47,750 bases of DNA from a virus. Within the stretch, counting starts at the first letter, position 1, and every line of letters starts with the position of its first letter. Under the pieces are notes generated by a model. The model was not told where the DNA came from and made no database searches. It saw only the letters and a list, made by a program, of their open reading frames with translations. Of this stretch, positions 4 to 47,278 are shown piece by piece. The DNA lies in UHGV virus genome UHGV-1789659; one strand, given 5' to 3'. A program made the translations under genes and the position numbers.

Positions 4-570
4 TTAATCATTCAATAATCTATATTTTCTTTTGATTAAATCTTCACCTTTTTTGGTGAACACAAAACCAAATTGCGATTTTTTGTTTAGACGAAGGACT
101 CTGTTATCCAACGCATCGGTTGATGGAATCAATGTTTGATCATCTATCCAATTAAGTAGCGTAAGAAAGTTCAGCAGCCTCAACGTTGTTGTGCGAAGCT
201 CTTTCGATATATTTTCAATGCTGGCAATTCGTCTTTCTTTTTTCTCAGGTGGTACAGATAATTGTTCTTGAGGTTTCGTGGATAGATAATCAATTTCGTT
301 TGCTGCATCGAATGATATGTGTGGCGTAATTTTGCTAAAAAAGCCTTTCGCTGACTCACTTGATAATAAACCAGACCTATTCATATCGTTTGTTATTCTG
401 TACAGGAGTGGACTGTGTTTCATTTCAGGATAACGTTGATAAAAGTTAAGCAATTCAAAAGCAGCATTAGCACCAACAAGAAAATCAGAAGGATCGCTGA
501 CTTTCCAGAAAGAATGATTTTTCTTAGCGCCAGTGGTGTCAACAAATGATAATTCTTTTAACCAACTCAT
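4..570 (-). CDS. hypothetical protein; start moved to the ATG at 570, which follows a GGAG-type RBS (ORF track opens at 603)
   Basis: Long minus-strand ORF; RBS (plus-strand CTCCTTTC at 577-584) lies upstream of the internal Met (MSWLKEL...). No recognisable motif. Confidence 0.45.
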   Translation of the reverse strand: MSWLKELSFVDTTGAKKNHSFWKVSDPSDFLVGANAAFELLNFYQRYPEMKHSPLLYRITNDMNRSGLLSSESAKGFFSKITPHISFDAANEIDYLSTKPQEQLSVPPEKKERRIASIENISKELRTTTLRLLNFLTLLNWIDDQTLIPSTDALDNRVLRLNKKSQFGFVFTKKGEDLIKRKYRLLND

Positions 571-635
571 GATGTGCTCCTTTCTAACAAGTGAGCACAT
601 CATAGAATTAGTTGATAGGGGGTAAATATGAAATG

Positions 636-2540: not shown

Positions 2541-3239
2541 GTGGATTGTAGCAATAAAATGGATGTAAAAATCACGATTTTGCAGGTTGATGTTGCCAAC
2601 CTTCGCCCGAATACCTGGAACACCAATTCGGTTGGTGCGCAGAATTTTGAAAAACTGAAAGGTTCTATCGAAAAATTGGGCTTTTTTAAGCCAATTTTGG
2701 CTCGTGAACTTGAAGATGGATTTTTTGAAATCCTCGGCGGCGAACATCGCTGGCGTGCTGCTATTGAGCAAGGAATTTCAACGGTTCCGGTGCTTTCTGT
2801 GGGCAAAATTAGCGATGTCGTAGCTAAACAGATGTCACTAGTGGACAACGAGCGATACGGTGAAGACGACCAAATCGCATTGCAACGCTTCATTGAAGAA
2901 ATTCAGTCAGAACTTGACTATCAACTGTCTGAAATCGCCCCGTATGACGACGAAATCTCGATGGTTTTAGCAAAAGAGGCGGCAATCGACCTTGAAGCAC
3001 TGGAGGCGTTGTCTCGTGGTAGTGATGAGCCTGTCGATACCGACAAACGAGAGAAAACCGAACGTGTGGGTGCGGAACATCAGACCATGCGCTTCAAAGT
3101 AACTTTCGATGCGTCAGATCGTGTTGCAGAAACCATAAAAAACATCATCAAAGAGCAGGCTATTAACACCGGTAATGAAATGGAGAACGCTGGTGAGGCT
3201 CTGGTGTGGCTGGTCGACTACTACAAGGAGCGTATGTAA
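2541..3239 (+). CDS. ParB/sulfiredoxin-like N-terminal domain protein with acidic C-terminus
   Basis: ILGGEHRWRAAIEQGISTVPV matches the ParB N-domain GxxRxxA box; stop overlaps the next start (TAATG). Confidence 0.7.
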   Translation: MDCSNKMDVKITILQVDVANLRPNTWNTNSVGAQNFEKLKGSIEKLGFFKPILARELEDGFFEILGGEHRWRAAIEQGISTVPVLSVGKISDVVAKQMSLVDNERYGEDDQIALQRFIEEIQSELDYQLSEIAPYDDEISMVLAKEAAIDLEALEALSRGSDEPVDTDKREKTERVGAEHQTMRFKVTFDASDRVAETIKNIIKEQAINTGNEMENAGEALVWLVDYYKERM

Positions 3240-3907
3240 TGACCAAAAAGTTTGAAATCGTATATCGCGACCCGGCAGATCTTATTCCCTATGAGATGAA
3301 TGCCAAAAAGCATGATGAACAGCAGATCCGAGATCTGGCCGCAGCCATTAAAAAGCGCGGATTTGACCAGCCAATTACGGTCGATAAGAACGACGTAATT
3401 ATTACTGGCCACGGCCGCCGTGAGGCTGCAATTTTTGCTGGACTTGAGCGCGTACCGGTTATTGTTCGCGATGATCTCAGTGATGACGAGGTTCGTGCGA
3501 AGCGCCTTGAAGATAACCGACTTGCCAGCATTGATTACGATGCAATTAAGCTACAGAAAGAGCTTGAGTCGCTTGTTCTGGACGATATCGAGGTTTTCGG
3601 CTTTGAAGAGCGGGAGTTGAATGTTCTCGTTGGCAGCATGACAGAAGAAATGGACACCGACTCGCTAGTTATCGATCTGGGCGAAGAAACTAAACGACAG
3701 AAGGATGAACACACCGAGATCAGTCGTGAAGTTGCAGCGGAAGAAGTACGTGTTGTCGACGTATTGGGCTTTAAAACGCTCCCTGCTGGCTCTGCCATTG
3801 TTGTTGGTGATTTGCTTGCCCACATGGAAGAAATGACGGGAGAAAGCGGGGTAGACGCATTTGTGGCATATGCGGAGAAGATCTCTTCCGGGGAGATGGC
3901 TGCATGA
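3239..3907 (+). CDS. second ParB-like N-terminal domain protein (start set at ATG 3239 with AAGGAG RBS)
   Basis: ITGHGRREAAIFAGLERVPVIV ParB-type box; acidic C-terminal half; translationally coupled on both sides. Confidence 0.7.
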   Translation: MTKKFEIVYRDPADLIPYEMNAKKHDEQQIRDLAAAIKKRGFDQPITVDKNDVIITGHGRREAAIFAGLERVPVIVRDDLSDDEVRAKRLEDNRLASIDYDAIKLQKELESLVLDDIEVFGFEERELNVLVGSMTEEMDTDSLVIDLGEETKRQKDEHTEISREVAAEEVRVVDVLGFKTLPAGSAIVVGDLLAHMEEMTGESGVDAFVAYAEKISSGEMAA

Positions 3908-4569
3908 GCAAATACATCATCAACGTATCGTTTCAGACTCGCGTAAATAAAACCACGCGCACGTTAGAAATCGCCGAATCGTTCGGGCTTGGTCTGGACG
4001 AAAAAGAGTGGACGCTTTACGACAATCTGGAGCTGGAAGTTAGGCAGGGCGATGTGGTGTACATCACCGGCCAATCCGGTTCAGGTAAATCCGTTGTGCT
4101 GCGCGAGCTGCAACGCCAGATGAAGGATGAAGGGCTTTCTGTAGCTTCTATTGATGACTTTACCTTCGATAATGAGGTTAACGTCATTGACCAACTGGGC
4201 AAAACTACCAGTGATGCGCTTGGGTTGTTATCTATGGCAGGTCTGAACGATGCATATCTGTTTGTTCGCAAGCCTTCTGAAATGTCAGACGGTCAGAAAT
4301 ATCGTCTCAAGATTGCCAAACTGATTGAGTCAGGCGCTAAAGTGTGGGCTGCTGACGAGTTCGGTGCTGTTCTCGACCGTGTAACCGCTCAGGTTGTGGC
4401 ATCTAATCTCCAGCGTGCCGCTCGAAAGGTTGGTGCGACGGTAATGGTGGCGACGACTCACGAAGACCTGAAGAACGCGCTGCGCCCGGATATGCAGATC
4501 ACCAAGCACTACAAAGAACGCGTGAAGGTGGAATATCACAATGGTAGTCATGATGAGGTCCATTCATGA
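3904..4569 (+). CDS. small ABC-type ATPase (Walker A/B, signature-like motif, H-loop)
   Basis: Walker A GQSGSGKS, signature-like SDGQKYRL, Walker B VWAADEFG, H-loop ATTHED; ATGA overlap with flanking genes. Confidence 0.65.
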   Translation: MSKYIINVSFQTRVNKTTRTLEIAESFGLGLDEKEWTLYDNLELEVRQGDVVYITGQSGSGKSVVLRELQRQMKDEGLSVASIDDFTFDNEVNVIDQLGKTTSDALGLLSMAGLNDAYLFVRKPSEMSDGQKYRLKIAKLIESGAKVWAADEFGAVLDRVTAQVVASNLQRAARKVGATVMVATTHEDLKNALRPDMQITKHYKERVKVEYHNGSHDEVHS

Positions 4570-5456
4570 CGGACATCATCATTAAACGCTACCGCACTGA
4601 AGAGTTTCCGCGTCATCTGGACTTTCTGGAGCGAATGACTGTTACAAAGGGAACTGTAGAGGACTGGCACGCTCTTAAGTCGCTTCACTACAAAACAGAC
4701 GGCAAACCTTTCGCGCCAACTTACTATCGCTGCGAACTTGATGACCGTCTGGTGGGCGTCGTGGTTATGGCTTACCCGAAACTACTGTTGGCACCTCGCC
4801 ACCGCATGTTTCCTAAGTTGAAACCAACCACTAATACCACCGTGGCTAACCAGTACTGGGGTCGGTACGTGAATAACAACTTTGCGGTGATTAGTCGCTC
4901 AGTTGTGGATACTCAGTATCGTGGCGTAGGCGTCTCTTATCGAATGATTAACCTGGTTAGCAGGATGCATGACCGGCCAATCATTGAGATCCAGTCCTCG
5001 ATGAGCAAATACAATCCCTTCGCCATGAAAGCAGGGTTTAAGTTCATCCGCCCTGAGCGACCGAAGAGCTATGAAAGTGCACTGCGTGTTTTCCAGCGTC
5101 ATTTTCGTTCCGACCCGGGTGATAACGAGGCGATCGTCAAAGAGTTGTTCGCAATGAGCGAGTCACGTCGTCGCCGTGCACTGCGTGATCTGGTGGCGGA
5201 CTACCACAAGAACAGTTCCCTGGCAAAAGCTGGGCGGAATCGCGGCACGACGATTCAGGACATTGCCGACAGTCTGGTGGACGAGGCCAGTATTGTGAAG
5301 CTGCTCAAGGACATTCACAACCTTAGCTTTACGTCTCCGTTGTATGGTGTGTATCGAAACCCTGACTTTGGTCGTCGACTGCCTGACACGCTGCCACTGC
5401 TGGCATTCGACAAACAACCTTTGGATAAACCGTTAGAAATTGCTTTACCGGCATAA
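4566..5456 (+). CDS. hypothetical protein with GNAT-like motif A
   Basis: 296-aa ORF; QYRGVGVSYRMINLV resembles the acetyl-CoA-binding motif A (Q/RxxGxG/A) of GNAT folds; coupled start (ATGA). Confidence 0.5.
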   Translation: MTDIIIKRYRTEEFPRHLDFLERMTVTKGTVEDWHALKSLHYKTDGKPFAPTYYRCELDDRLVGVVVMAYPKLLLAPRHRMFPKLKPTTNTTVANQYWGRYVNNNFAVISRSVVDTQYRGVGVSYRMINLVSRMHDRPIIEIQSSMSKYNPFAMKAGFKFIRPERPKSYESALRVFQRHFRSDPGDNEAIVKELFAMSESRRRRALRDLVADYHKNSSLAKAGRNRGTTIQDIADSLVDEASIVKLLKDIHNLSFTSPLYGVYRNPDFGRRLPDTLPLLAFDKQPLDKPLEIALPA

Positions 5457-5465
5457 GGATTTGCC

Positions 5466-5732
5466 ATGACGTTAACCGACAAACAAAAGGACATCATCAA
5501 AACGCTCAATCTCGGTTATGAGCGAGGTCATCTACTTGATCTGGACGAATTGCTTGAAGTTTTGCCGTACAAGACAACAAAGCAAAGTATCCAGTTCTCA
5601 ATTCGCGCTCTGATAAAAAAGGGGCTGGTGGAGAAAGGGCATACGCGCCAACGCAGTGACAATCGCTATCACCGCCGGACTCTTGGGTTAACCACTTTAG
5701 GTCGAGCCAAAGCGAAGTTACTGGTGATGTAA
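5466..5732 (+). CDS. small basic protein, possible winged-helix DNA binder
   Basis: 88-aa ORF with AAGGA RBS, last gene of the five-gene operon; basic C-terminus. Confidence 0.45.
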   Translation: MTLTDKQKDIIKTLNLGYERGHLLDLDELLEVLPYKTTKQSIQFSIRALIKKGLVEKGHTRQRSDNRYHRRTLGLTTLGRAKAKLLVM

Positions 5733-5756
5733 TCGGTCTGGGACGTTATTTAAAGA

Positions 5757-5811
5757 CCTGCTTCTGTATATATAAATAATAAGTAACTTATTAAATATAT
5801 ACGGAAGCAGG
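5757..5811. repeat. 55-bp near-perfect palindrome (copy 1) with AT-rich core containing AATAAGTAACTTATT
   Basis: Arms CCTGCTTCTGTATAT / ATATACGGAAGCAGG read directly; a second copy lies at 36597-36645. Confidence 0.8.
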
Positions 5812-5875
5812 CTTAGTAAGACATGCCCAGACCTAATTAGACACACCAGAAAACAAGTTGGTTAGCAGATGCAGT

Positions 5876-5890
5876 AAACAAGTTGTTTTA
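5876..5890. promoter_or_regulatory. AAACAAGTTGTTT operator-like inverted repeat upstream of the terminase operon
   Basis: Near-palindrome; a related GAAAACAAGTTGG lies at 5847-5860; similar sites upstream of parA and the dnaB-like gene. Confidence 0.35.
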
Positions 5891-5928
5891 GAGCGCATGG
5901 ACGCGCTCTGTGTGTTTTAGAGGGATCT

Positions 5929-6561
5929 ATGACTGTCGAAAAAGACGAGGTAAAAACTCGCCTGACACCAGCGGAGTGGGCCGAAGCTGAAGCCAAATGG
6001 ACGTCAGGCGAATATACACTCTCAAAGCTGGAGGAAGAGTACGGCATTCGTCGTGAAACACTCTCCAGACATTTCAAAAAGCGAGGATTAGAGAAAGGCG
6101 CGGACTCTGTTGGGAAGATGGTTCGTGAGTCTCTTAAATCTGACGCAGAGCTTCGCGCTAAAGCCCGTGCGGAAAAGATAGAAGAACGTCGTACACGTTA
6201 TGACGGCTGGGCGTATGCGTTGGGGCAGATGGTGATGGTCGAAGTCACTACGGCCAAACGTGAGGGTAAGCCTTTAGGGGCGATTGAGGGTTCTCTCAAG
6301 AGCTTACAGAGAGCCAGTAATACCCTTGCAAAATGCTTTGAAGTTTCGTCCAAAGCATTGGGCATGGATCATGCGGAAAATGACGAGGAAGAAATTCCGA
6401 ACCTGGTATTTGGTGAGCTTACGCCTTCCCAGGTGGCGAAATTACGTCAGGAAGACGACGAGCCTGAAATCATCGATGACGAATTGCTTGAGACGTTGGA
6501 AGAAGAAGCTCTAAGCGAATTTGATGCGACAGATGATGGAAGTGAAGGGGAGGACGAATAA
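5929..6561 (+). CDS. putative terminase small subunit
   Basis: 210-aa ORF directly upstream of and coupled to the large terminase (TAATG); acidic C-terminal tail; GAGGGA RBS. Assignment is by position only. Confidence 0.45.
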   Translation: MTVEKDEVKTRLTPAEWAEAEAKWTSGEYTLSKLEEEYGIRRETLSRHFKKRGLEKGADSVGKMVRESLKSDAELRAKARAEKIEERRTRYDGWAYALGQMVMVEVTTAKREGKPLGAIEGSLKSLQRASNTLAKCFEVSSKALGMDHAENDEEEIPNLVFGELTPSQVAKLRQEDDEPEIIDDELLETLEEEALSEFDATDDGSEGEDE

Positions 6562-7817
6562 TGGTAATCCCGTCCTCGCTCAGTCTTGTGCAACTGCATT
6601 CTGGACAGATGAAAGTCTTCCAGTCTCCGCATCGATTTAAAGTTGTTTGTGCTGGTCGACGCTGGGGAAAATCCCGGTTGTCGATCTCCACTATTATTCG
6701 TGCGGCGGCAAAGGAAAAAAAGCAAAGGGTCTGGTATGTCGCTCCTACTTACCAGATGGCTCGCCAGATTTTGTGGGACGATCTACAGGAAGTTCTGCCC
6801 CGTAAGTGGGTTAGGAAAAAGAACGACACCACGATGACAATCGTGTTGAAGAACGGTTCGGAGATCGCCCTCAAAGGTGCTGATAAACCTGACACTCTGC
6901 GCGGCGTAGCGTTGCATTTTGTAGTGCTTGATGAATTTCAGGATATGAAGGCTGACACCTGGTACAAGGTGTTACGACCTACTCTTTCATCGACACGCGG
7001 CGGTGCACTGATTATTGGTACGCCAAAAGGCTTCTCGGAATTTCACAAACTGTGGACTATAGGCCAGAACGTAGAGCTGCAAAGAAAGGGACAGTGGAAG
7101 AGCTGGCAGTTTGTAACTGCTGATTCGCCGTTTGTGCCTACGGCGGAAATTGAAGCTGCTAAGAACGATATGGACCCTAAATCGTTCGCTCAGGAGTACC
7201 TGGCCAGCTTTGAAAATATGTCCGGGCGCGTTTACTACCCGTTCGATCGAAACGTGCATGTTAAACCGCTTCAGTTCAACCCTCGGTTGCCTATATGGGT
7301 AGGACAGGACTTCAACATTGACCCGATGTCTTCCGTAATTTTGCAACCTCAGCCAAATGGTGAGCTATGGGCAATTGATGAATTGGTGCTCTTTTCCTCT
7401 AACACGGCAGAGGTTTGTGATGAGCTTGAGAGGCGCTTCTGGCGCTGGAAATCACAGATAACGGTATTTCCAGATCCGGCAGGTGCTTATCGCCAACATG
7501 CTCGCGGGGAGTCTGACGTAGACATATTCAAAGAGAAGGGATTCTTACGTGTCGATTATTCGAAAAAGCACCCGCCAATTGCGGATCGTGTTAATGCTGT
7601 TAACCGAATGCTGATGACCGCATCTGGAGATATCCGGCTGTATATCGATCCGAAGTGCAAGCATTTGATTGATTCACTGGAAAAGGTCATCTACAAGCCT
7701 GGAACACGAGATATGGATAAGACAGGTGGCATTGAGCATAGTGCAGACGCATTGGGCTATCCAGTACATCGTAGGTATCCAGTCAAAAACCGTGTTATTC
7801 TTGGTGGTTCTCGATAG
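6561..7817 (+). CDS. terminase large subunit
   Basis: Walker A-like VVCAGRRWGKS and Walker B HFVVLDEFQD in the N-terminal ATPase region; C-terminal nuclease-sized domain; GAGG RBS. Confidence 0.85.
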   Translation: MVIPSSLSLVQLHSGQMKVFQSPHRFKVVCAGRRWGKSRLSISTIIRAAAKEKKQRVWYVAPTYQMARQILWDDLQEVLPRKWVRKKNDTTMTIVLKNGSEIALKGADKPDTLRGVALHFVVLDEFQDMKADTWYKVLRPTLSSTRGGALIIGTPKGFSEFHKLWTIGQNVELQRKGQWKSWQFVTADSPFVPTAEIEAAKNDMDPKSFAQEYLASFENMSGRVYYPFDRNVHVKPLQFNPRLPIWVGQDFNIDPMSSVILQPQPNGELWAIDELVLFSSNTAEVCDELERRFWRWKSQITVFPDPAGAYRQHARGESDVDIFKEKGFLRVDYSKKHPPIADRVNAVNRMLMTASGDIRLYIDPKCKHLIDSLEKVIYKPGTRDMDKTGGIEHSADALGYPVHRRYPVKNRVILGGSR

Positions 7818-28285: not shown

Positions 28286-31200
28286 ATGTGGTACAGGGAA
28301 GGTACTATCACATTTACACAGGGTAGCAATACTCTGGTTGGTGTTGGAACAGCCTGGAACGTAACAGCTAATGGTGTGTTGCCGGGCATGATCGTCATTG
28401 GTCCCGACAATAAGCTGTATGAGATCAAGCGCGTAACAAGCGATACGAATATTGTTCTCTCAGAACCTTATACCGGCGAAACTCAGTCTGAAGTTCCGTG
28501 CCGAATCATTACGACCTATGAAGGCGACTTAACACAGTTTAGCGCGCGCTTTACTGCGCTAATGTCGCGTATGTCGGCTGATTCCAAGTCCATGCGCAGT
28601 TGGTTGACTGCTCTGGATGAGGTGACAATCGAGCGTGAAGACGGTACAGAAGTGACCGTTAAGCCGCTAATGCAGATCGTCAACGAGCACAACGAAAACG
28701 TTGAGTGGTATAAAAATAACACCGACGCGATAGACGCTGCTGGCGACAAAGCTCGTGAGGCGGCGGCCAGTGCTGCCGCAGCAGCAGAAAGCGCCAATAC
28801 CGCTGGAGAAAAAGCCTCTCAAGCGTCTCAAAGTGCATCCGCTGCGGCTTCCTCACAAAGTGCTGCAAGTGCGAGTGCAACTGCTGCGAAAAAATCTGAA
28901 ACGAACGCAGAAGCCGCAAAAGAAGCGGCAGCAGAATCAGCGTCTGTAGCATCGACCAAAGCATCGGAGGCTGCAACATCTGCGTCCAGTGCCTCTGCAT
29001 CTAAGGATGCAGCCAAAGCATCAGAGACTAACGCTTCATCGAGTGCAAACGCGGCGGCATCATCGGCAACAGAAGCTGCAAATTCGTCTAAGGCAGCAAA
29101 AACGTCAGAGACAAACGCAAAAGCATCTGAAAAGGCAGCCGAACAGAGTGCATCGTCTGCAAACAGTTCGAAATCTGCGGCAGAAGCGTCAGCCAGCGCA
29201 GCCTCAGCAAGTGCGGATAGTGCTTCATCGAGTGCAACTGCGGCAGGAAGAGCTGCGGAAAGCGCGTCTTCATCCGCGACAACAGCTACCACAAAAGCGA
29301 CAGAGGCGACGAGTCAGGCTACAGCTGCTAAAAATTCAGCATCGGCAGCAAAAACCTCTGAAACAAATGCAAAGGCCTCAGAAGACAATGCTGCTTCCTC
29401 TAAGGCGGCAGCTGCTGAATCTGCAAGTTCTGCGTCTGCATCAGCCACCTCGGCATCCGCTTCAAAAGATGAGGCGACCAAGCAGGCATCAGCAGCGAAG
29501 GGTAGTGCTTCAACGGCATCCACAAAGGCAACAGAGGCGGCAGGCAGTGCGACGGCTGCATCTCAGAGCAAAACTGCTGCCGAATCTGCTGCGACTCGTG
29601 CAGAAGCTGCTGCTGATCGTGCTGAAGAGATTGCCGGTGCAGTTGCGATGGAAGACGCAAGCCTTACAACTAAAGGTGTTGTGAAACTTAGTAGTGCGAC
29701 AGATAGCACCAGTGAATCACTGGCTGCAACTCCAAAGGCAGTTAAAGCTGCGAATGACAATGCGAATAGCCGATTGGCGAAGAACCAGAATGGTGCTGAT
29801 ATACCAGGTAAGGATACCTTCACGAAAAATATTGGCGCTGGTCGAGCATTTGGAGGCTCTGTAAGCACAACAGCAGGAAACTGGACTACGGCACAGTTTG
29901 TCGAATGGTTGGACTCTCAAGGGGCCTTTAATCATCCGTACTGGATGTGTAAAGGCTCATGGTCGTATGGCAACAACAAAATCATTACTGATACTGGTTG
30001 TGGCGATATTCATCTTGCCGGGGCAGTAATTGAGGTAATGGGGATAAAGTCCGCAATGACGATCCGCGTTACCACACCAACAACATCTAGCGGTGGTGGT
30101 ACTGCTAACGCTCAATTTACTTATATTAACCACGGGACAGATTATTCTCCAGGCTGGCGACGAGACTACAATACAAAATACAAACCTACGCCATCGGATA
30201 TAGGTGCATTATCAACATCAGGAGGGACGGTTTCAGGTCCGTTGTCTGTTACTGGTGGGTTAACTGGTTCATTGAATGGCAATGCGAGTACCGCCACGAA
30301 ATTGCAGACTGCAAGAACTATCGGCGGCGTGGCCTTCGATGGATCTGCGAACATAAATTTGCCTGGTGTAAACACGGCAGGTAATCAGAGCACCACTGGT
30401 AATGCCGCAACCGCTACAAAACTTCAAACGGCAAGAACGATTGGTGGCGTTTCATTTAACGGAACTGCCAACATCGACTTGCCCGGAGTTAACAAAGCTG
30501 GCAACCAAAGCACCACAGGTAATGCTGCTACAGCTACTAAATTGCAGACAGCAAGAACCATCGGTGGTGTTAGCTTCGATGGCACTGCGAATATTAATTT
30601 GCCTGGTGTTAATGCTGCCGGTAATCAGAACACTACCGGTAACGCGGCTACAGCGACCAAGTTGCAAACTGCGAGAACTATTAACGGGGTGTCGTTTAAC
30701 GGCTCTGCGAATATTTCGATACCAACAATTACGTCCAGAGGACGCGTTACTGCGCTCACAGGCACAACGCAAGGCGCTACTACTGGATTGCAGATGTACG
30801 AGGCATATAACAACGGCTATCCTTCGACTTACGGGAATGTGCTTCATCTTAAGGGGGCAACAGCCGTTGGTGAAGGCGAGTTGTTCATAGGTTGGAGCGG
30901 TACAAGTGGCGCTCATGCACCTGTACATGTACGTTCGCGACGAGATACTGATACAGCCAGTTGGTCAGAGTGGGCGCAAGTTTATACGTCCAAAGACTCA
31001 ATTCCAGGTGTCAATGCCACCGGTAATCAGAACACTACTGGCAATGCAGCATCAGCAACGAAGTTGCAAACTGCCAGAACAATTGGAGGTGTATCGTTTA
31101 ATGGTACCGCCAATATTAACTTGCCGGGCGTCAATATAGCGGGTAATCAGAATACGACTGGTAACGCTGCTTCAGCCACGAAGTTACAAACGGCTCGTAC

Positions 31201-31813
31201 TATTGGTGGTGTTAGTTTTAACGGTACAGCCAATATTAACTTACCTGGTGTGAATACGACCGGTAATCAGAACACTACTGGTAATGCTGCAACCGCCACA
31301 AAATTGCAGACAGCAAGGAAAATTGCTGGTGTGGCGTTTGATGGCTCTGCCGATATAACTTTGACTGCGGCTAACCTTAATGCTTATACGAAAACAGAGG
31401 TAACAAACCTTCTCAGTTCCTATGTGAAGAGTAGTTCTCTTCCAAGCATGACTGTGCGAACTTCCTCTGTTTCTGGTGGGGATATGGGCATGAGTTTGTC
31501 CACATTCATTAGCCACCTTAAATCAAATGGGGCATTTAGCAAAAGTTATTGGATTGGCTTTGGCGATGCTATGGGATTCAATGCTGGCAGTATCAACAAT
31601 ATAACGGGATTTGGTGCTGTAGAATTAGCAGAATCCATAATCGAAGTTTTTAATCTACCGAATGGTGATTATACAATTCGTTTAACGACGTCACACAAAG
31701 CTGACTACGGTGGGATTACAAACGCAATCCTCGTTTATCACTACCGCAGTAATAGAAACCCGACAGGTCAATGGCTTAAATTTGCCGGTACTCTTGGGGC
31801 TACAAACAACTGA
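28286..31813 (+). CDS. side tail fibre protein (Stf-like) with Ala/Ser-rich region and tail-fibre repeats
   Basis: AAKTSETNAKAS-type low-complexity region as in lambda Stf (recalled); eight copies of a roughly 40-aa repeat NQ.TTGNAATATKLQTARTIGGV.F.G.ANI.LPGVN. Confidence 0.8.
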   Translation: MWYREGTITFTQGSNTLVGVGTAWNVTANGVLPGMIVIGPDNKLYEIKRVTSDTNIVLSEPYTGETQSEVPCRIITTYEGDLTQFSARFTALMSRMSADSKSMRSWLTALDEVTIEREDGTEVTVKPLMQIVNEHNENVEWYKNNTDAIDAAGDKAREAAASAAAAAESANTAGEKASQASQSASAAASSQSAASASATAAKKSETNAEAAKEAAAESASVASTKASEAATSASSASASKDAAKASETNASSSANAAASSATEAANSSKAAKTSETNAKASEKAAEQSASSANSSKSAAEASASAASASADSASSSATAAGRAAESASSSATTATTKATEATSQATAAKNSASAAKTSETNAKASEDNAASSKAAAAESASSASASATSASASKDEATKQASAAKGSASTASTKATEAAGSATAASQSKTAAESAATRAEAAADRAEEIAGAVAMEDASLTTKGVVKLSSATDSTSESLAATPKAVKAANDNANSRLAKNQNGADIPGKDTFTKNIGAGRAFGGSVSTTAGNWTTAQFVEWLDSQGAFNHPYWMCKGSWSYGNNKIITDTGCGDIHLAGAVIEVMGIKSAMTIRVTTPTTSSGGGTANAQFTYINHGTDYSPGWRRDYNTKYKPTPSDIGALSTSGGTVSGPLSVTGGLTGSLNGNASTATKLQTARTIGGVAFDGSANINLPGVNTAGNQSTTGNAATATKLQTARTIGGVSFNGTANIDLPGVNKAGNQSTTGNAATATKLQTARTIGGVSFDGTANINLPGVNAAGNQNTTGNAATATKLQTARTINGVSFNGSANISIPTITSRGRVTALTGTTQGATTGLQMYEAYNNGYPSTYGNVLHLKGATAVGEGELFIGWSGTSGAHAPVHVRSRRDTDTASWSEWAQVYTSKDSIPGVNATGNQNTTGNAASATKLQTARTIGGVSFNGTANINLPGVNIAGNQNTTGNAASATKLQTARTIGGVSFNGTANINLPGVNTTGNQNTTGNAATATKLQTARKIAGVAFDGSADITLTAANLNAYTKTEVTNLLSSYVKSSSLPSMTVRTSSVSGGDMGMSLSTFISHLKSNGAFSKSYWIGFGDAMGFNAGSINNITGFGAVELAESIIEVFNLPNGDYTIRLTTSHKADYGGITNAILVYHYRSNRNPTGQWLKFAGTLGATNN

Positions 31814-33261: not shown

Positions 33262-33475
33262 GATTACGCTGGCTGCCGTTCTTTTCGTTCTGGTCGGCGC
33301 TTACACGATGGGTGGGAATGCAGCACGACGAGCAATGGAAGAGAAGGCAAAACAGGAAGACAGAAAACGACTTCAAAACACAGTGGAAGTGGTGAATGAG
33401 ACGAGCAATAAAATACGTCAGAAAGATGCTTCTGCCGTTCATCGTGAGTTGTATGATAAGTGGGTGCGTCATTAA
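33224..33475 (+). CDS. i-spanin (Rz-like)
   Basis: N-terminal TM helix (ALITLAAVLFVLVGAYTMGG) followed by a charged segment; an embedded lipoprotein ORF overlaps the 3-prime end. Confidence 0.65.
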   Translation: MLGSLMTKLKVALITLAAVLFVLVGAYTMGGNAARRAMEEKAKQEDRKRLQNTVEVVNETSNKIRQKDASAVHRELYDKWVRH

Positions 33476-33611
33476 ACCACAAACCGCCAGCGTATTGTTC
33501 TGCGATGGAGCTGAGCCTATCTATATCAGCAATAATGATGTGATGACCGAAGAAACCGAACGCCAAATCCTTTTTCACAATACGATGGGAGAGAGAGTTT
33601 GCGGTTGGTGA
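33426..33611 (+). CDS. o-spanin (Rz1-like lipoprotein), overlapping the i-spanin in another frame
   Basis: Signal peptide with lipobox MLLPFIVSCMISG-C; in-frame ATG at 33426 inside the ORF-track ORF 33396..33611. Confidence 0.6.
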   Translation: MLLPFIVSCMISGCVIKPQTASVLFCDGAEPIYISNNDVMTEETERQILFHNTMGERVCGW

Positions 33612-34710: not shown

Positions 34711-34724
34711 AAAACAAGTTGTTT
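34711..34724. promoter_or_regulatory. AAAACAAGTTGTTT operator-like site upstream of parA
   Basis: Near-palindrome shared with sites at 5876 and 37512. Confidence 0.35.
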
Positions 34725-35428: not shown

Positions 35429-35787
35429 TGTCCATGAAAATGGGTGACCTAGCAAAGCGCAAAGAGCCTGATGCACCGGCTAAGAACACAACTCCTTTGC
35501 GCCAACCAGTCAGACCACAGGGACGCCCGACTCGTGGCAAAGAGAAAATTAAAAGCCGCACAATGTCACTGGAGGACGAATACTTCGAACTGCTGGAGAT
35601 GATGAAGTTCATCCCTCGCTTCGAGAAATTCACCCGCTCTGATGTGATTCGTGCTGCTATTTTCCATCTTGCGGAGAAGACACCGCAGGAAATCGAGGAC
35701 ATCGTGAAACTTAACGAGGCGATCACAGCTGCCGACGTTACGATGCGTACCGATGAAATTAAACGAGAGTTGATGAAGAAAGGTTGA
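35428..35787 (+). CDS. ParG-like RHH centromere-binding protein
   Basis: 119 aa; basic flexible N-terminus and C-terminal beta-alpha-alpha pattern (RTMSLEDEYFELLE...SDVIRAAIFHLAEK); TAATG coupling to parA. Confidence 0.6.
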   Translation: MSMKMGDLAKRKEPDAPAKNTTPLRQPVRPQGRPTRGKEKIKSRTMSLEDEYFELLEMMKFIPRFEKFTRSDVIRAAIFHLAEKTPQEIEDIVKLNEAITAADVTMRTDEIKRELMKKG

Positions 35788-35788
35788 C

Positions 35789-35818
35789 AAGAGAAGGCGT
35801 GATTAGACGCCTTCTCTT
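35789..35818 (+). terminator. 12-bp-stem hairpin after the partition operon
   Basis: AAGAGAAGGCGT-GATTAG-ACGCCTTCTCTT read directly. Confidence 0.5.
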
Positions 35819-35831
35819 AAAAGGTATATTT

Positions 35832-36572
35832 ATGCTTTACAAATATGTTGGAAGTAGCGTCCCGGAAGACACAATAAATTATTTAAAGTATTACTTAGAA
35901 GATGGGAAAATTCGAGATTTCAACGATCCTGCCGAGTTTAAAGTTAATTTTGATTATGATGCTGATATAGACGCCATTAAGAAAAGATTTTTTGAGCTTT
36001 GGCCTAATCATCACAATGATGAATTTGAACGCTGGTTATTGAGTCAAACAGAACATAGTCGCAGTTTTGATAACTATATGATTAGAACGACTTTTCTGCA
36101 GCGTCGGGGAGTTATTTGTTTGACAAAAAGACCAGATAATTATCTTATGTGGTCGCATTATGCGCATTCTCACTCTGGTTTTTGCATCGGATTTGATGAT
36201 GGTTTTATAAATGCGTTTGATGATGTTTTTTTTGTTCGCGGTGAGGTCAAATATTCCTCTGATGTTCCGGTTGTAAATTTTTTTACCGACTCAGCTAAAG
36301 AGATTGCAGCGGCTCTTTGCCTAAATAAAAGCGATGTCTGGGAATATGAAGAGGAGGTTAGAATCGTAACCGAGAATTGTGGCGTGAAATTATTTGATAA
36401 ATCCTTAATTAAGGAAATAACAATAGGTTGTAAGGCTAGCAGTCAACTTCAAAATTATGTTCATCAACTATTTGATTCAGGTATCGAAATCTACAAAATG
36501 AAGTGCCCTACAGGATCGTATAAGCTGGAAAAAATAAGATTAGAGAAAGATACTGATTTTCTTGGATACTAG
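35832..36572 (+). CDS. AT-rich orphan gene; hypothetical protein (possibly DUF2971-like, unverified)
   Basis: 246 aa from ATG 35832; visibly AT-rich versus neighbours; conserved-looking core LMWSHYAHSHSGFCIGFD...WEYEEEVRIV; bounded by hairpin and palindrome. Confidence 0.5.
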   Translation: MLYKYVGSSVPEDTINYLKYYLEDGKIRDFNDPAEFKVNFDYDADIDAIKKRFFELWPNHHNDEFERWLLSQTEHSRSFDNYMIRTTFLQRRGVICLTKRPDNYLMWSHYAHSHSGFCIGFDDGFINAFDDVFFVRGEVKYSSDVPVVNFFTDSAKEIAAALCLNKSDVWEYEEEVRIVTENCGVKLFDKSLIKEITIGCKASSQLQNYVHQLFDSGIEIYKMKCPTGSYKLEKIRLEKDTDFLGY

Positions 36573-36596
36573 TATTGGTAGTATCAACAATTATGA

Positions 36597-36645
36597 CCTG
36601 CTTCCGTATATAATAAGTATCTTAGTATATATATACGGAAGCAGG
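36597..36645. repeat. 49-bp palindrome (copy 2) with AT-rich AATAAGTATCTTAGTAT core
   Basis: Arms CCTGCTTCCGTATAT / TATACGGAAGCAGG; same family as 5757-5811. Confidence 0.8.
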
Positions 36646-36728
36646 TCTTTTAAAGACACCCACCAGAACAACTCCCTTCTGTTTCCACTTCCAAAAACTG
36701 CCACCAGTCGCTATCATCCGCTCATTGT

Positions 36729-36750
36729 GATAAGTAAGTATCTACCTACC
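36729..36750 (+). promoter_or_regulatory. GATAAGTAAGTATCTACCTACC conserved motif
   Basis: GATAAGTA-family motif directly upstream of the replication-module first gene. Confidence 0.4.
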
Positions 36751-36761
36751 AGGTGAGCCAC

Positions 36762-37502
36762 ATGAGCCAAATCTTTTTCGATACCATCGACAACGACCAG
36801 TACGACTTCATGACAGAGTGGAATACCGCTGCTATGGACAAGTGGGTCGCTGAAAACATTGGTTTGTCGCGCTGTAAAGACGAGGCTGAACTCTTCGAGA
36901 CGAAGTGGTTTGATTACCGCGACATGCATCCTCTTATGGCCACCTGTCTATTTACGGAGGCATACAAACGTCAGTACTCAAATATCATGCTGACGCACGG
37001 TCGTGAACACTTTGAAACAGCTCCGTTCACCACCGGGTTAAAACGCCTGCCTTATCAGGAGTTGTCGACTGCCAATAAAACGTCGCTATGGAAAGCACGC
37101 CAGTTTGCTGATCGCTATTGCTGTTCATACGACTACTTTATCTCCACGGTTCTTTCCGCAGCTGCACGGCGTCTGTGGGACAAGTTGCCGCGCCCACAGC
37201 ATTTATGGCAGCCAGAGCTGATTGAGATATTTGAAGAGAAATTAGCCAGACGCGCAACAACCCGTCTGGATGACTCTCTGGTTAGCTTTAAGCATATGGG
37301 AGACATGCAGTTCAACCCGATTCAGGAAAGCTATTTTGAGTGGATTCTGGAGCGTTTACGCACCATCCCCCGCAGCAAGCGCATACGCGCAATTTTCTCC
37401 GCTATCTGGCTAATGGAAATTGTTCCAGAGCGCCTTATTTCCGCCCACTTTCCAGAAGAACTGGAAGAAGCACGGCGGTTTATTGATCCCCTATCTAATT
37501 AA
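36762..37502 (+). CDS. hypothetical replication-module protein (possible initiator or helicase loader, by position only)
   Basis: 246 aa from ATG 36762 (ORF track opens at GTG 36753); immediately upstream of the DnaB-like helicase. Confidence 0.45.
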   Translation: MSQIFFDTIDNDQYDFMTEWNTAAMDKWVAENIGLSRCKDEAELFETKWFDYRDMHPLMATCLFTEAYKRQYSNIMLTHGREHFETAPFTTGLKRLPYQELSTANKTSLWKARQFADRYCCSYDYFISTVLSAAARRLWDKLPRPQHLWQPELIEIFEEKLARRATTRLDDSLVSFKHMGDMQFNPIQESYFEWILERLRTIPRSKRIRAIFSAIWLMEIVPERLISAHFPEELEEARRFIDPLSN

Positions 37503-37511: not shown

Positions 37512-37526
37512 GAAAACAATTTGTTT
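37512..37526. promoter_or_regulatory. GAAAACAATTTGTTT operator-like near-palindrome upstream of the helicase gene
   Basis: AACAA-T-TTGTT inverted repeat; same family as the sites at 5876 and 34711. Confidence 0.35.
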
Positions 37527-40150: not shown

Positions 40151-41395
40151 ACCAGTATTAGTCACGTAAACATTGACCGAAAATGATTTAACTTCTGTGT
40201 TGAAGTTGTCAGTCATTACCGCGAGGTAGGCATTCTTGGTATCTCTGAATTGCTTCAGGATGATTTGAACGTTATCGGTGCAAACAAACGAGGTAGCCAG
40301 ATTGCCTCCTTTCTCTGAAAAATCCTTCAAGAAGGTGCAGTCAACTTTGCCATCATTAGCGGTAAAGACGGCATCATCACCCTGCCAGGTAAATGTTGCG
40401 TTAACGCCTTTATCAATGGATTTAGCAATAAGTCGCTGAGTGTCAGATTTGGCATTTTGCTGTTTTGAAGGCGAACGGAACGTACCTTTTGCTTTCATTG
40501 CAGCAACGTTTTCGCAGCCCGTTTCGTCATCTTTATCGCAAGCAGCTTGGTAAAGCTCTGATGCTTTCCGATAATCCTGTTTGACGCCCAATCCCTTAAG
40601 ATACATGTAACCAAGGTGGTTCATGGCATAATCATTTCCTAAGCTGATTGCTTGTTCTAAAAGACTTCTGGCCTTCGAATAGTCTTTTTTTATACCTTCT
40701 CCATGCATCAACTTGTATCCAAGCGCGCTCATGGCGTTATTATTTCCTAATTCAGCTGCTTTCAAGTACCACTTAATTGCCTCTTTATTGTTGCGCTTAA
40801 CAGCAACACCATCGTCGTACATAGAGCCTAGCCCATACATTCCTGCGGCATTTCCACTATCCGCAGCCTTTTTATAAGATTTAAATGCTTTCTTGTAATC
40901 TTTCGGAACTCCCTTACCGTATTGATATAAATATCCCATATAGGCAAGCGAAGGTATATCACCAGCTTCTACTGCTAGTTTGTGATATTTTAAAGCAGCT
41001 TCTGGGTCCTCCTTTCCAGTCCAACCTCGTTCGTATATAACGGCAAGATTATGGTAAGCACTGCCGTTGCGAGCATTTCCTGCTAGTTTGTAGTACTCAA
41101 CGGCCTTATTTAGATCTTTATCTACTCCCTTCCCAATTGTGTACATAACCCCAAGCGCATAATATGCTACTTTATCTCCCTTTTCTGCGGCGAGATCGAT
41201 CCACTTCTTGGCCTCTACTAAATCCTCATCAAAGCCATTAGCCCCATCCAAATAATTTGTCCCTAACGCACTTTGTGCTGTGGTATCTCCTGCGGTGGCG
41301 GCGTCGATCAGCGTTTGTTTATTATCTGCGTTAACGTATCCAGGGCCGAAAAGCAAAGCTAATGCCAGCAACGATGAAGGTTTTATGAGTTTCAT
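40142..41395 (-). CDS. secreted Sel1-like repeat (SLR/TPR-like) protein
   Basis: Signal peptide MKLIKPSSLLALALLFGPGYVNA; about eight 36-aa Sel1-type repeats; C-terminal 110-aa non-repeat domain; 3-prime end overlaps the primase stop convergently. Confidence 0.75.
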   Translation of the reverse strand: MKLIKPSSLLALALLFGPGYVNADNKQTLIDAATAGDTTAQSALGTNYLDGANGFDEDLVEAKKWIDLAAEKGDKVAYYALGVMYTIGKGVDKDLNKAVEYYKLAGNARNGSAYHNLAVIYERGWTGKEDPEAALKYHKLAVEAGDIPSLAYMGYLYQYGKGVPKDYKKAFKSYKKAADSGNAAGMYGLGSMYDDGVAVKRNNKEAIKWYLKAAELGNNNAMSALGYKLMHGEGIKKDYSKARSLLEQAISLGNDYAMNHLGYMYLKGLGVKQDYRKASELYQAACDKDDETGCENVAAMKAKGTFRSPSKQQNAKSDTQRLIAKSIDKGVNATFTWQGDDAVFTANDGKVDCTFLKDFSEKGGNLATSFVCTDNVQIILKQFRDTKNAYLAVMTDNFNTEVKSFSVNVYVTNTGSN

Positions 41396-45643: not shown

Positions 45644-46391
45644 TTTTATGTATAAGATGACTTTGTTTTCGTTGAGACGCGACTGTTTGAACTTAAATAC
45701 AAGTGCAAACGAAGAAGTCTATCTGGCAGTAGCCTAATAAGCCAAACACCAGCGAGGTCAGTTTCCAGCCTCGTTACCGAAATGGGACACACTGAGCGAG
45801 TGTGATTGCAGAACGCAGGAGGGAACATGAGTGTTCCCTCCGATGAAGTAACAGAATGGGCGGTCGGTATATTTTCAACTCCATATGACTCCCGGATTCT
45901 TAGCCACTGACCGCCCATCCTGTTACGTCATTTTGTTCAATTATGTCGTTTATACTGGGTTAAAAAGCGGCGACGTAGCCCGGCTGGTATGGTTAGCCAG
46001 CACACAACGTTGAGGCCATTACATTTTTATCAATTCTAAGGTTCTATTCACAGAGATACCGGCGAGCGTTGATATGTAACATGTTGGGCAAACATTCAAT
46101 CGGAGTAGTGGCCTCAACGTTGTGAAGACAGGATTGTTGTGTAGGTTTAACCACTGTTGCCATTGGTGCCTGTTTTCACAACAAATGATTCCATACATCA
46201 CATTGTATAAATTACAAAGTAGGTGCTGTCCTCAGAAACATCATCTACTTAAAGAGTTTGCCTTCTACTATTGAGCGAAGTCGAAAGCGTCTGGCACTAA
46301 CGAAAAGTGCAAGTAGCGGTGCGTTTCTTGGCAGAAACTAACACCGCCGCGATTGGCACTGTTGAGTAATAAATACTGTCAGTGCTGAATT

Positions 46392-46466
46392 GATGGTGTA
46401 GCTCAGCGGTAGAGCAGTTGGCTGTTAACCAACTGGTCGGTGGTTCGACTCCATCACTCCCCACCA
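46392..46466 (+). tRNA. tRNA-Asn(GTT)-like; acceptor stem pairs poorly, so possibly a pseudogene
   Basis: D-arm GCTC-AGCGGTA-GAGC, anticodon loop CTGTTAA, T-arm GGTGG-TTCGACT-CCATC, 3-prime ACTCCCC-A-CCA; 5-prime strand GATGGTG gives only 3 of 7 pairs. Confidence 0.5.
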
Positions 46467-46470
46467 AATT

Positions 46471-46546
46471 GCCGGTTTAGCTCAGTTGGTAGAGCAGTCG
46501 CTTTGTAAGCGAATGGCCAGCGGTTCGAGTCCGTTAACCGGCACCA
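46471..46546 (+). tRNA. tRNA-Thr(TGT)
   Basis: Acceptor GCCGGTT/AACCGGC pairs perfectly; D-arm GCTC...GAGC; anticodon loop TTTGTAA; T-arm AGCGG-TTCGAGT-CCGTT; encoded CCA. Confidence 0.8.
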
Positions 46547-47192
46547 ACATAATATTGAGAACATTGGCGTAACGGGGTCATATCCCAATCTATGAATAAA
46601 TGTTGCGTTGCCGCGTGACAACCAGTGTTCTCAACATTGTGGTGAATGCACAGGCTGATGTGCCGCAACTACAGTAGTGCGCGCTTTGCGGGGCTTGCTA
46701 CAACCCTGTGTCGGAGCTCAGCACCGACCATCACAATTTGGCTCTCTTGCAACAGCATAACGCTGGAATATGTCCAACCTGGTGCGGTCTGATCACCCGC
46801 CGTTAGCTCCACGAAACGGAGCGCACAACAGATAAGAGAACTTCCCATATGGGGCTTGTCTTAAATGCATCGAGTTCTCTTATCGCTGTGTCACAGACAA
46901 AATTCCGACAGCCCTGTTTATCATCGGACGCAACCTAAAAGGTCGAGGCAAAGCCAGGTAATAGCGGAGGGAGTGACACAGCACACAACAGGTAAGAGCA
47001 TTTTCAGAGTTCGACTCTCTGAGTTGCCATTCGTGGTGGCACGCGAGACGTGAATGCTCTTTCCGTTGTGGTGAATGTGGCTAAGCGCACGCGGGGAAAT
47101 GGTTATATTGATCATTTTATGACATCTGTGGCCCCGTTCACGGTGGATAACCAGCCAAAGGACACCGGGAGGCACCCGGCACCACAACAATT

Positions 47193-47278
47193 GGAGAGTA
47201 GGGAGCATGGTGCTCAAGCGGTCTTGAAAACCGCCCCATTGCGCAAGCGATGATGGTTCGATTCCATTACTCTCCGCC
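47193..47278 (+). tRNA. tRNA-Ser(TGA)-like with long variable arm
   Basis: Acceptor GGAGAGT/ACTCTCC, anticodon stem-loop GCGGT-CTTGAAA-ACCGC, T-loop TTCGATT, encoded CCA; D-arm spacing atypical. Confidence 0.6.

What the first reader, a model, noticed from the sequence alone, without database searches (positions are those of the whole stretch)
5757..5811. Two copies of a roughly 50-bp near-perfect palindrome bounding gene modules
CCTGCTTC(T/C)GTATAT ... ATATACGGAAGCAGG arms with an AT-rich core containing an AATAAGTA motif occur at 5757-5811 and 36597-36645. Copy 1 separates the ParB/ATPase operon from the packaging operon. Copy 2 separates the AT-rich orphan gene from the replication module. 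They could be bidirectional terminators, origin or centromere-like sites for the ParB-like proteins, or recombination hotspots marking module boundaries.
Basis: seen in the sequence. Interest (0 to 1): 0.6.

Follow-up and report, generated by a model that had tools for sequence, protein, structure and literature searches.

The report
Triplicated boundary hairpins of SSU5-like phage-plasmids
The two palindromes are real and are two of three conserved copies of a long hairpin-forming element that sits just after the last gene of an operon in SSU5-like phage-plasmids, most likely acting as a strong transcription stop between gene modules, although a role in DNA packaging at the copy next to the terminase genes is not excluded.

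Summary
The window is an SSU5-like phage-plasmid, closest to E. coli phage Cyrano/pLF82. Copy 1 (5757-5811) and copy 2 (36595-36647) share 16-18-nt arms (CCTGCTTCYGTATATA) that occur nowhere else in the window.

They belong to a three-copy family. The third copy lies outside the window, after an adenine methylase gene. All 113 copies recovered from IMG/VR fall in the same three syntenic slots. Each lies 22-27 nt after an upstream stop codon and 107-118 nt before the next start codon, always between co-oriented genes.

Each palindrome is nested in an outer inverted repeat (GGTCTGGGAG...CTCCCAGACC). The RNA hairpins are very stable (-29 kcal/mol; -48 with the outer stem). At sites 2 and 3 a T-run follows directly. 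In a diverged Klebsiella lineage the palindrome has decayed and an ordinary terminator stands at each slot.

Best reading: strong intrinsic terminators that insulate modules. Not explained by that alone:
- the sequence changes in concert at the three sites;
- Acinetobacter relatives keep a homologous single site before terS;
- the SSU5 GenBank record begins inside copy 1.

A packaging or protein-binding role therefore stays open. A centromere for ParA is not supported. No published description was found.

The parts
5757..5811 (.). Palindrome copy 1 (site 1): arms CCTGCTTCTGTATATAT / ATATATACGGAAGCAGG with an AT-rich core containing AAGTAACTT
   Evidence: Conserved upstream of terS in all 55 IMG/VR loci whose TerL is at least 95% identical.
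5735..5744 (.). Outer-left arm GGTCTGGGAC of the nested palindrome at site 1
   Evidence: Pairs with 5826-5833 in the fold. Compensatory changes occur in this outer stem across relatives.
5825..5833 (.). Outer-right arm GCCCAGACC of the nested palindrome at site 1
   Evidence: A CCCAGAC-like motif is shared downstream of all three sites.
36595..36647 (.). Palindrome copy 2 (site 2): 18-nt perfect arms GACCTGCTTCCGTATATA and a shortened 17-nt core
   Evidence: (I5). Same slot in Cyrano (31159-31211) and SSU5 (33458-33513).
36648..36651 (+). T-run (TTTT) directly after the copy 2 hairpin
   Evidence: The tail TCTTTTAAA is found in 12 of 16 distinct site 2 variants.
36660..36669 (+). CCACCAGAAC, the outer-right-like motif downstream of copy 2. 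The matching left arm was lost where the orphan gene abuts the palindrome.
5466..5732 (+). 88-aa gene (PHROG 900), last gene of the ParB_N/ABC operon. Its stop codon lies 24 nt before copy 1.
5929..6561 (+). terS, first gene of the packaging and structural operon. It starts 117 nt after copy 1.
35784..36572 (+). AT-rich orphan cargo gene (35% G+C). Its stop codon lies 24 nt before copy 2. Most relatives lack it.
36753..37502 (+). 249-aa gene (PHROG 2500), first gene of the helicase/primase module. It starts 107 nt after copy 2.
5851..5888 (+). Two copies of the separate AAACAA-N-TTGTTT palindromic motif in the terS leader (5851-5863 and 5876-5888). These are the likely regulatory site of the downstream operon and are not part of the palindrome.

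Best explanation
The two palindromes are paralogous copies (sites 1 and 2 of three) of a conserved hairpin element that marks the 3' end of a transcription unit in SSU5-like phage-plasmids.

Proposed mechanism. Transcribed from the + strand, each copy forms a 17-18-bp stem, extended by an inner and, at site 1, an outer stem. At sites 2 and 3 a U-tract follows directly. RNA polymerase coming from the upstream operon therefore terminates about 25-80 nt after the last stop codon. The upstream operons are the ParB_N/ABC/88-aa genes, the ParA/119-aa pair plus variable cargo, and the methylase.

This insulates the next module from read-through. Those modules are terS/structural/lysis, helicase/primase replication, and a third set of small genes. 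Each has its own regulatory region in the 107-118 nt that follow.

Shown: the anatomy, the fixed positions, hairpin stability, the T-runs, conservation, and replacement by ordinary terminators in a diverged lineage.

Inferred: that termination actually occurs, and that insulating the following operons from upstream transcription is the selective reason.

Site 1 is the ancestral copy and has only a weak U-tract. It probably carries an additional sequence-specific role at the DNA level.
For: 1. Position. All copies lie between co-oriented + strand genes, 22-27 nt after a stop codon and 107-118 nt before the next start. This holds in the window, Cyrano and SSU5, whatever the upstream gene is.

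2. Synteny. All 113 IMG/VR copies fall in the same three slots.

3. Stability. RNA hairpins fold at -28 to -30 kcal/mol with z about -8.

4. U-tracts. The tails are TCTTTTAAA (12 of 16 distinct site 2 variants) and CTTTTTAAG or CTTTTAAAG (10 of 14 site 3 variants) on the + strand. The T count is lower on the - strand.

5. Replacement. In the K. michiganensis lineage, and at site 1 also in K. oxytoca, the palindrome is degenerate. At each slot examined there is a different short G+C hairpin, followed by a clear T-run at sites 1 and 3 and a weaker one at site 2, for example CAGAGCacgGCTCTG+T8.

6. A lineage with TerL about 90% identical keeps a palindrome with an altered, still symmetric core, followed by CTTTTT.

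7. Pairing is maintained by compensatory changes: 3 of 29 pairs changed on both sides. At site 1 many of the departures are G-U on the sense strand.

8. Cargo genes are inserted between the upstream operon and the palindrome, as expected if they use an existing terminator.

9. The regulatory-looking motif of the downstream operon (AAACAA-N-TTGTTT) lies after the palindrome.
Against: 1. Ordinary terminators do not keep the same sequence at three loci and across genera. Here the arms are nearly invariant while the flanks diverge.

2. The sequence changes in concert at the sites in two diverged lineages. That points to a trans-acting reader or to gene conversion.

3. Site 1 has only a weak T-tract.

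4. The Acinetobacter homologue of site 1 has none.

5. At site 3 the arm mismatches are C-A on the sense strand, not G-U.

6. The simple terminator scan does not call the palindromes, because their loops exceed its limit.

7. No transcript data were available.
Confidence: 0.45

Rival explanations
1. Packaging site. The palindrome is the recognition and cleavage site of the terminase, either pac (start of headful packaging) or cos. Site 1 is the primary site. Sites 2 and 3 are extra copies that are tolerated or used.
For: - Site 1 lies directly upstream of terS/terL.
- The linear GenBank record of the virion-derived phage SSU5 ends ...ACTTATTA and begins AATATATACGG, inside site 1. The join reconstitutes the palindrome exactly.
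- A homologous nested palindrome exists as a single copy at the same place in Acinetobacter phage-plasmids, whose proteins are only 30-60% identical. Conservation that deep suits an essential cis site.
- Nested symmetry around an AT-rich centre resembles the symmetric layout of cosN and of P1 pac. This comparison rests on my own knowledge; the P1 pac position is.
- TerS is more diverged than TerL in the lineages where the site sequence changed: 65% against 89%.
Against: - Three near-identical copies per genome are hard to reconcile with cos.
- The Cyrano record start was copied from SSU5 by re-orientation, so it is not independent evidence.
- No other phage record starts there.
- Some loci end or begin inside a palindrome, so assembly breaks there remain a possible cause (L031, L119, L120).
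- The nearest characterised TerL relatives (about 25-28% identity) are Jersey-, Kaguna-, Dhillon- and T5-like phages. From my own knowledge these are headful or terminal-repeat packagers, not cos phages.
- The constant spacing from upstream stop codons and the T-runs are not explained.
Confidence: 0.2
2. DNA-binding site of an element-encoded protein. The protein would bind the two arms, or the core, as a symmetric dimer. It could be a repressor acting as a roadblock or operator at the entrance of three lytic operons. Alternatively it could be a loading site for the Spo0J-like ParB_N protein encoded just upstream of site 1.
For: - Arm sequence is conserved across the three sites and across E. 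coli, Salmonella, Klebsiella and Yersinia, while the flanks diverge.
- The sequence changes in concert at the sites in two lineages.
- Compensatory changes keep the symmetry.
- ParB1 matches Spo0J over residues 13-160, including the DNA-binding region, and is encoded in the operon that ends 24 nt before site 1.
- The core AAGTAACTT has the form of the P1 late-promoter -22 box AAGTTACTT.
Against: - No partner protein is identified.
- The half-sites are about 39 bp apart centre to centre, which is unusual for a dimer.
- There is no resemblance to the canonical parS.
- A separate palindromic motif family with 18-20 copies already looks like the general operator of these elements.
- For the P1-type reading: no TANNNT lies 4 nt after the box, the motif is not repeated elsewhere, and the only Lpa-like similarity is weak.
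- For the ParA/119-aa centromere reading: site 2 is separated from that pair in SSU5, and site 1 persists without it in pMT1.
Confidence: 0.2
3. DNA-structure site for replication or recombination. The palindromes would extrude hairpins or cruciforms. These would serve as lytic origins, or as break sites for the element's own SbcCD-, RuvC- and RecA-like machinery, and would incidentally be junctions for module exchange.
For: - Long AT-centred palindromes of about 100-125 bp including the outer arms.
- The elements encode homologues of SbcC/SbcD, RuvC, RecA, UvsY, gp32 and UvsW.
- Site 2 lies directly before the helicase/primase module.
- The left flank of site 2 is variable and begins at the palindrome edge.
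Against: - The evidence is circumstantial only.
- Cumulative GC skew rises steadily around the genome with no turn at the sites.
- Gene order and orientation between the sites are the same in every relative seen, so inversion or deletion between copies is not evident.
- No jump in identity is seen across site 1.
Confidence: 0.08

Closest known systems
Rho-independent (intrinsic) transcription terminators at phage operon ends
   Same: A stable hairpin lies immediately after the last stop codon of a co-oriented operon. A T-run follows at sites 2 and 3. A diverged lineage has ordinary terminators at the same slots.
   Different: The stem is much longer (17-18 bp plus inner and outer stems) and the centre is AT-rich. 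The same sequence is kept at three loci and across genera. The T-tract at site 1 is weak.
cosN of lambda and pac of P1 (terminase cleavage sites)
   Same: Site 1 is next to the terminase genes and has two-fold symmetry around an AT-rich centre. The SSU5 record ends fall inside it.
   Different: There are three copies per genome, and no virion-end data exist. The nearest characterised TerL relatives are, from my own knowledge, headful or terminal-repeat packagers rather than cos phages.
Dispersed centromere or operator palindromes of plasmids and phage-plasmids (N15 sopC-like sites, RK2 KorB operators, P1 C1 operators)
   Same: A few identical palindromes are scattered over a plasmid-prophage genome at operon boundaries. 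One lies next to ParB-family genes. (This comparison rests on my own knowledge.)
   Different: Those sites are 13-17 bp long with adjacent half-sites. Here the arms are 16-18 bp and about 20 bp apart. No binding protein is identified, and the link to ParA/119-aa fails the co-occurrence test.
P1 late promoters (Lpa -22 box AAGTTACTT plus a -10 element)
   Same: The core of copy 1 is AAGTAACTT, and in P1 one such promoter (LPpac) precedes pacA.
   Different: There is no TANNNT at the P1 spacing. The copy 2 core differs (AAGTATCTT). No clear Lpa homologue is present. In the diverged lineage terminators follow the shared motif, which argues against a promoter.
Repetitive extragenic palindromes (REP/ERIC-type elements)
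   Same: Imperfect palindromes of about 55-125 bp in transcribed intergenic regions, with a possible role in stabilising or terminating RNA.
   Different: They are not dispersed or mobile. All 113 copies found lie in three fixed syntenic slots of one element family.

Membership tests
Intrinsic terminator | Stable stem-loop in the transcript at the end of a transcription unit | tested here: met
   -28.8 and -29.6 kcal/mol, z about -8. The palindromes start 24 nt after the stop codons of co-oriented genes.
Intrinsic terminator | U-tract immediately 3' of the stem | tested here: inconclusive
   Copy 2 has TCTTTT directly after the stem. Sites 2 and 3 average 5.1 and 4.4 T in 8 nt. Copy 1 has CTTAGTAAG and site 1 averages 3.1 T.
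Intrinsic terminator | Transcript 3' ends at the site | not testable with these tools
   No transcript-end data were available. A Y. pestis sRNA survey lists two RNAs on pMT1. sR082 was checked and lies elsewhere; sR083 was placed elsewhere only by a rough coordinate estimate.
cos site | Virion DNA ends map to the site | tested here: inconclusive
   The SSU5 record starts and ends inside site 1. The Cyrano start was copied from SSU5. No other record starts there.
cos site | One functional site per genome | tested here: not met
   Three near-identical copies are present in Cyrano and SSU5.
cos site | Adjacent to terminase genes | tested here: inconclusive
   True for copy 1 and false for copy 2.
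ParB/parS centromere | Sequence of parS type (16-bp palindrome tGTTNCACGTGAAACa) | tested here: not met
   There is no resemblance. No canonical parS is found above chance in the window or relatives.
ParB/parS centromere | Co-occurrence and adjacency with the partition genes (ParA plus the 119-aa protein) | tested here: not met
   SSU5 has four genes between the pair and site 2. pMT1 keeps site 1 but lacks the pair. The Acinetobacter site is not near its ParA.
ParB/parS centromere | Binding by the ParB-family protein | not testable with these tools
   ParB1 is Spo0J-like and is encoded beside site 1. No binding data exist.
P1-type late promoter | 9-bp inverted repeat AAGTNACTT followed after 4 nt by TANNNT | tested here: not met
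   The box is present in copy 1 only. No TANNNT lies at that spacing. The copy 2 core is AAGTATCTT.
P1-type late promoter | Lpa activator encoded by the element | tested here: inconclusive
   The only similarity is 35% over 52 aa to ORF 4-603(-). That ORF belongs to PHROG 13473, not to the Lpa PHROG 1704, and it is absent from pMT1 and the K. michiganensis plasmid.
REP/ERIC/MITE-like repeats | Many dispersed copies at non-syntenic positions | tested here: not met
   All 113 copies lie in three syntenic slots of SSU5-like elements.
Known RNA families (Rfam) | Match to a curated covariance model | tested here: not met
   Only two tRNAs reach the gathering score in the window.

The most novel reading that the evidence does not exclude
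The palindromes are DNA-level cis sites read by the packaging machinery. SSU5-like phage-plasmids would then carry three dispersed, co-evolving terminase entry or cleavage sites (multiple pac sites), with the ancestral one before terS. The hairpin and terminator property would be a second use of the same sequence.
Probability: 0.15. Interest if true: 0.65.

Novelty: new variant of a known kind. Interest (0 to 1): 0.38.

Why it matters
SSU5-like phage-plasmids are common in clinical Enterobacterales, including pHCM2, pMT1, pLF82 and carriers of CTX-M/KPC resistance genes. Their gene regulation is almost unstudied.

A conserved three-site boundary element gives a concrete handle on how the plasmid state keeps the packaging and replication operons shielded from neighbouring transcription. 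It also marks where cargo genes are taken up: the slot just before site 2.

If site 1 proves to be the packaging site, that would define how these elements are encapsidated and what they can transduce.

Tried and rejected
- Scan of genome contigs with CCTGCTTCYGTATAT. With 14 specified bases it returned almost only chance hits in unrelated MAGs, and only a Kluyvera contig looked real. The scan was wasted.
- Literature. No paper in the library mentions cos, cohesive ends, termini or palindromes for SSU5-like elements. The SSU5 announcement and the Gilcrease and Casjens paper are not held.
- Rfam: nothing at the sites.
- Sigma-70 promoter and terminator scans call nothing at the palindromes.
- T4-type late promoter. 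TATAAATA lies on the + strand in most copies but not in copy 2 of the window. No gp55-like or other sigma gene is found, and the Acinetobacter sigma has no homologue here. In the diverged lineage terminators follow the shared motif. Rejected.
- P1 Lpa-box promoter: rejected, see the membership test.
- Canonical parS: absent.
- Cumulative GC skew rises steadily and is uninformative.
- Divergence of candidate DNA-binding proteins against the site changes singles out no protein.
- A gapless centre-out palindrome scan failed, because the inner and outer dyads are offset by 1 nt. It was replaced by a seed-based scan.
- Y. pestis sRNAs on pMT1 are not at site 1. sR082 was checked directly; sR083 was placed only by a rough coordinate estimate.
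The contig ranges do not support this, so the idea was dropped.
- A recalled resemblance to ERIC was not tested beyond showing that the copies are not dispersed.

Full report
**What the window is**

Megablast places the window in the SSU5 group of phage-plasmids. It is 97-99% identical over the tested regions (5000-7000 and 35700-37500) to Escherichia phage Cyrano (= pLF82), CMS-2020a and PhiR41_1. It is about 78-80% identical to Klebsiella relatives and to Salmonella phage SSU5. Almost all genes are on the + strand.

**The observation**

- Copy 1 (5757-5811) is 55 nt long with 17-nt arms and one T/G mismatch.
- Copy 2 has perfect 18-nt arms (36595-36612 and 36630-36647) and a 17-nt AT-rich spacer.
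- The 15-nt arm occurs exactly four times in the window, all in these arms. About 0.0002 exact hits are expected by chance.
- As single strands they fold at -28.8 and -29.6 kcal/mol, z about -8.

Gene contexts are as described.
- Copy 1 follows an operon of two ParB_N proteins, two ABC-type ATPases and an 88-aa protein. It precedes terS and terL.
- Copy 2 follows an orphan gene of 35% G+C. It precedes a 249-aa gene, a DnaB-like helicase and a primase.

**A three-copy family with fixed positions**

- Cyrano has exactly three copies: before terS, at 31159-31211, and at 78084-78138 after an adenine methylase gene.
- SSU5 has the same three.
- A scan of IMG/VR with one arm returned more than 120 loci. 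Of these, 113 are full palindromes of 51-57 nt. Every one lies in one of the same three syntenic slots: 55, 35 and 23 copies.
- In a sample chosen by TerL homology rather than by the arm, all 55 loci with TerL at least 95% identical have both arms within 2 mismatches.
- In the window, Cyrano and SSU5 the palindrome starts 22-27 nt after the upstream stop codon. It ends 107-118 nt before the next start codon, at all sites.

**Extended anatomy**

Oriented alignments show an outer inverted repeat, GGTCTGGGAG and CTCCCAGACC. It lies about 12 nt to the left and 9-26 nt to the right of the palindrome. The full unit is therefore an imperfect palindrome of about 100-125 bp. For copy 1 this extended hairpin folds at -48.4 kcal/mol.

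Pairing is kept by changes on both sides in 3 of 29 consensus pairs, for example GTCTGG/CCAGAC becoming AACTGG/CAGTT.

At copy 2 of the window the outer-left arm is missing, because the orphan gene abuts the palindrome.

**Evidence for termination**

- On the + strand, site 2 is followed by TCTTTTAAA and site 3 by CTTTTTAAG in most variants. Site 1 has only weak tails on either strand.
- In the K. michiganensis and K. oxytoca lineage (TerS 58-65% identical) the site 1 palindrome is degenerate. Its right part now pairs with a new partner to give CAGAGCacgGCTCTG followed by T8.
- In the K. michiganensis plasmid, sites 2 and 3 each have their own, different, short G+C hairpin, followed by a clear T-run at site 3 and a weaker one at site 2.
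- Another lineage (TerL about 90%) keeps a palindrome with a new, still symmetric core (AATAACTGGTTATT), followed by CTTTTT.
- Upstream cargo differs between relatives but always ends about 24 nt before the palindrome: none, the orphan gene, or four genes in SSU5.
- The motif that looks like the regulatory site of the downstream operon lies after the palindrome.

Together these fit a strong hairpin terminator. It would close the upstream unit and shield the packaging, replication and third modules from read-through.

**What termination alone does not explain**

- The arms are nearly invariant across three loci and across E. coli, Salmonella, Klebsiella and Yersinia, while adjacent intergenic sequence diverges.
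- In the K. michiganensis plasmid, sites 2 and 3 share an identical non-palindromic motif of about 55 nt. Its right end is recognisably the old right arm.
- In the lineage with TerL about 90% identical, the cores of sites 1 and 3 changed together. Either a trans-acting factor reads the sequence, or the copies are homogenised by gene conversion.
- Acinetobacter phage-plasmids (proteins 30-60% identical) have one homologous nested palindrome. It begins 26 nt after the last gene of the operon that includes the ParB/ABC and 88-aa homologues, upstream of terS, and has no T-run. The arm sequence is not found elsewhere in that plasmid. Site 1 is therefore ancient, and its role is probably not only termination.

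**Packaging**

The SSU5 GenBank record ends ...ACTTATTA and starts AATATATACGGAAGCAGG. It is split inside site 1 with no bases lost or duplicated. This is the only hint of a physical end.

The identical start of the Cyrano record is not independent. That record is pLF82 re-annotated and compared with SSU5.

Points against cos:
- There are three copies per genome.
- The nearest characterised TerL relatives are, from my own knowledge, headful or terminal-repeat packagers.
- Some IMG/VR loci end inside a palindrome, which may reflect assembly breaks.

Headful packaging from several pac-like sites is not excluded.

**Centromere and ParB**

The ParA/119-aa pair is not the partner.
- SSU5 has four genes between the pair and site 2.
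- pMT1 has lost the pair and sites 2 and 3 but keeps a perfect site 1.
- The Acinetobacter site is not near its ParA.

ParB1 is Spo0J-like through its DNA-binding region and is encoded beside site 1, so binding by it remains possible. The site is unlike the canonical parS, and no canonical parS exists in these elements.

**Promoter ideas**

- The core of copy 1, AAGTAACTT, has the form of the P1 late-promoter -22 box.
- It lacks the -10 element at the P1 spacing, is not repeated elsewhere, and has no convincing Lpa partner.
- TATAAATA on the + strand resembles a T4 late promoter. No matching sigma factor is encoded, and copy 2 lacks the motif.

**Prior knowledge**

I found no description of these palindromes in the searchable literature. 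Nothing in Rfam matches them.

**Verdict**

This is a real, conserved, three-copy boundary element. It is most likely a strong intrinsic terminator and insulator (confidence 0.45). The copy before terS probably has a second, sequence-specific DNA-level role. Packaging recognition (0.2) and binding by an element-encoded protein (0.2) are the main candidates for that role.

Noticed in passing
window 5851-5863, 5876-5888, 34712-34724, 37514-37526: A second repeat family: the palindrome (AG)AAAACAA-N-TTGTTT. It has 4 copies in the window, 18 in Cyrano, 20 in SSU5 and 12 in a K. michiganensis plasmid, against about 0.2 expected. The copies I checked against annotated genes lie a few tens of nt (about 25-85) upstream of start codons. 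It is probably the operator or promoter element of a global regulator of these phage-plasmids.
   Followed up: partly
window 5889-5910: A conserved hairpin (GAGCGC...GCGCTC) followed by TGTGTTTT in the terS leader, just before the ribosome-binding site. The K. michiganensis relative keeps a hairpin there with a different sequence (GGCGTC...GATGCC). This suggests an attenuator or a translational control structure.
   Followed up: partly
window 45843-47359: Several inverted-repeat units of about 80-120 nt. Three of them share the ends CACA(A/G)CGTTGAG...CTCAACG(T/C)TGTG or a close variant. They lie around two tRNA genes (46395-46463 and 46471-46543). Cyrano has the same units.
   Followed up: no
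L258-L260 (Acinetobacter plasmid NZ_CP061522.1), e.g. record 33297-33318, 40337-40358, 47329-47350: About 25 intergenic copies of a 26-bp palindrome, ATTATTAGTAAGCGCTTACTAATAAT. Some lie inside the structural operon. This plasmid also encodes its own sigma-70-family factor. The motif core TAAG..CTTA resembles the core of the SSU5-type palindromes.
   Followed up: partly
window 35784-36572 and the slot left of site 2 in relatives: The position between the ParA/119-aa pair and site 2 is a variable cargo slot. It is empty in most relatives, holds the AT-rich orphan gene here and in Cyrano, and holds four other genes in SSU5. At least six different left flanks were seen.
   Followed up: partly
window 4-603 (- strand): This 199-aa ORF (PHROG 13473, function unknown) shows weak similarity to the N-terminus of the P1 late-promoter activator Lpa: 35% over 52 aa, pairwise E 0.001. 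It is absent from pMT1 and the K. michiganensis plasmid.
   Followed up: partly
window 2541-5456: An operon of two ParB_N proteins and two ABC-type ATPases, conserved as far as Acinetobacter phage-plasmids. The first ParB_N protein is Spo0J-like over residues 13-160. Its function is unknown, and no canonical parS is present in the element.
   Followed up: partly
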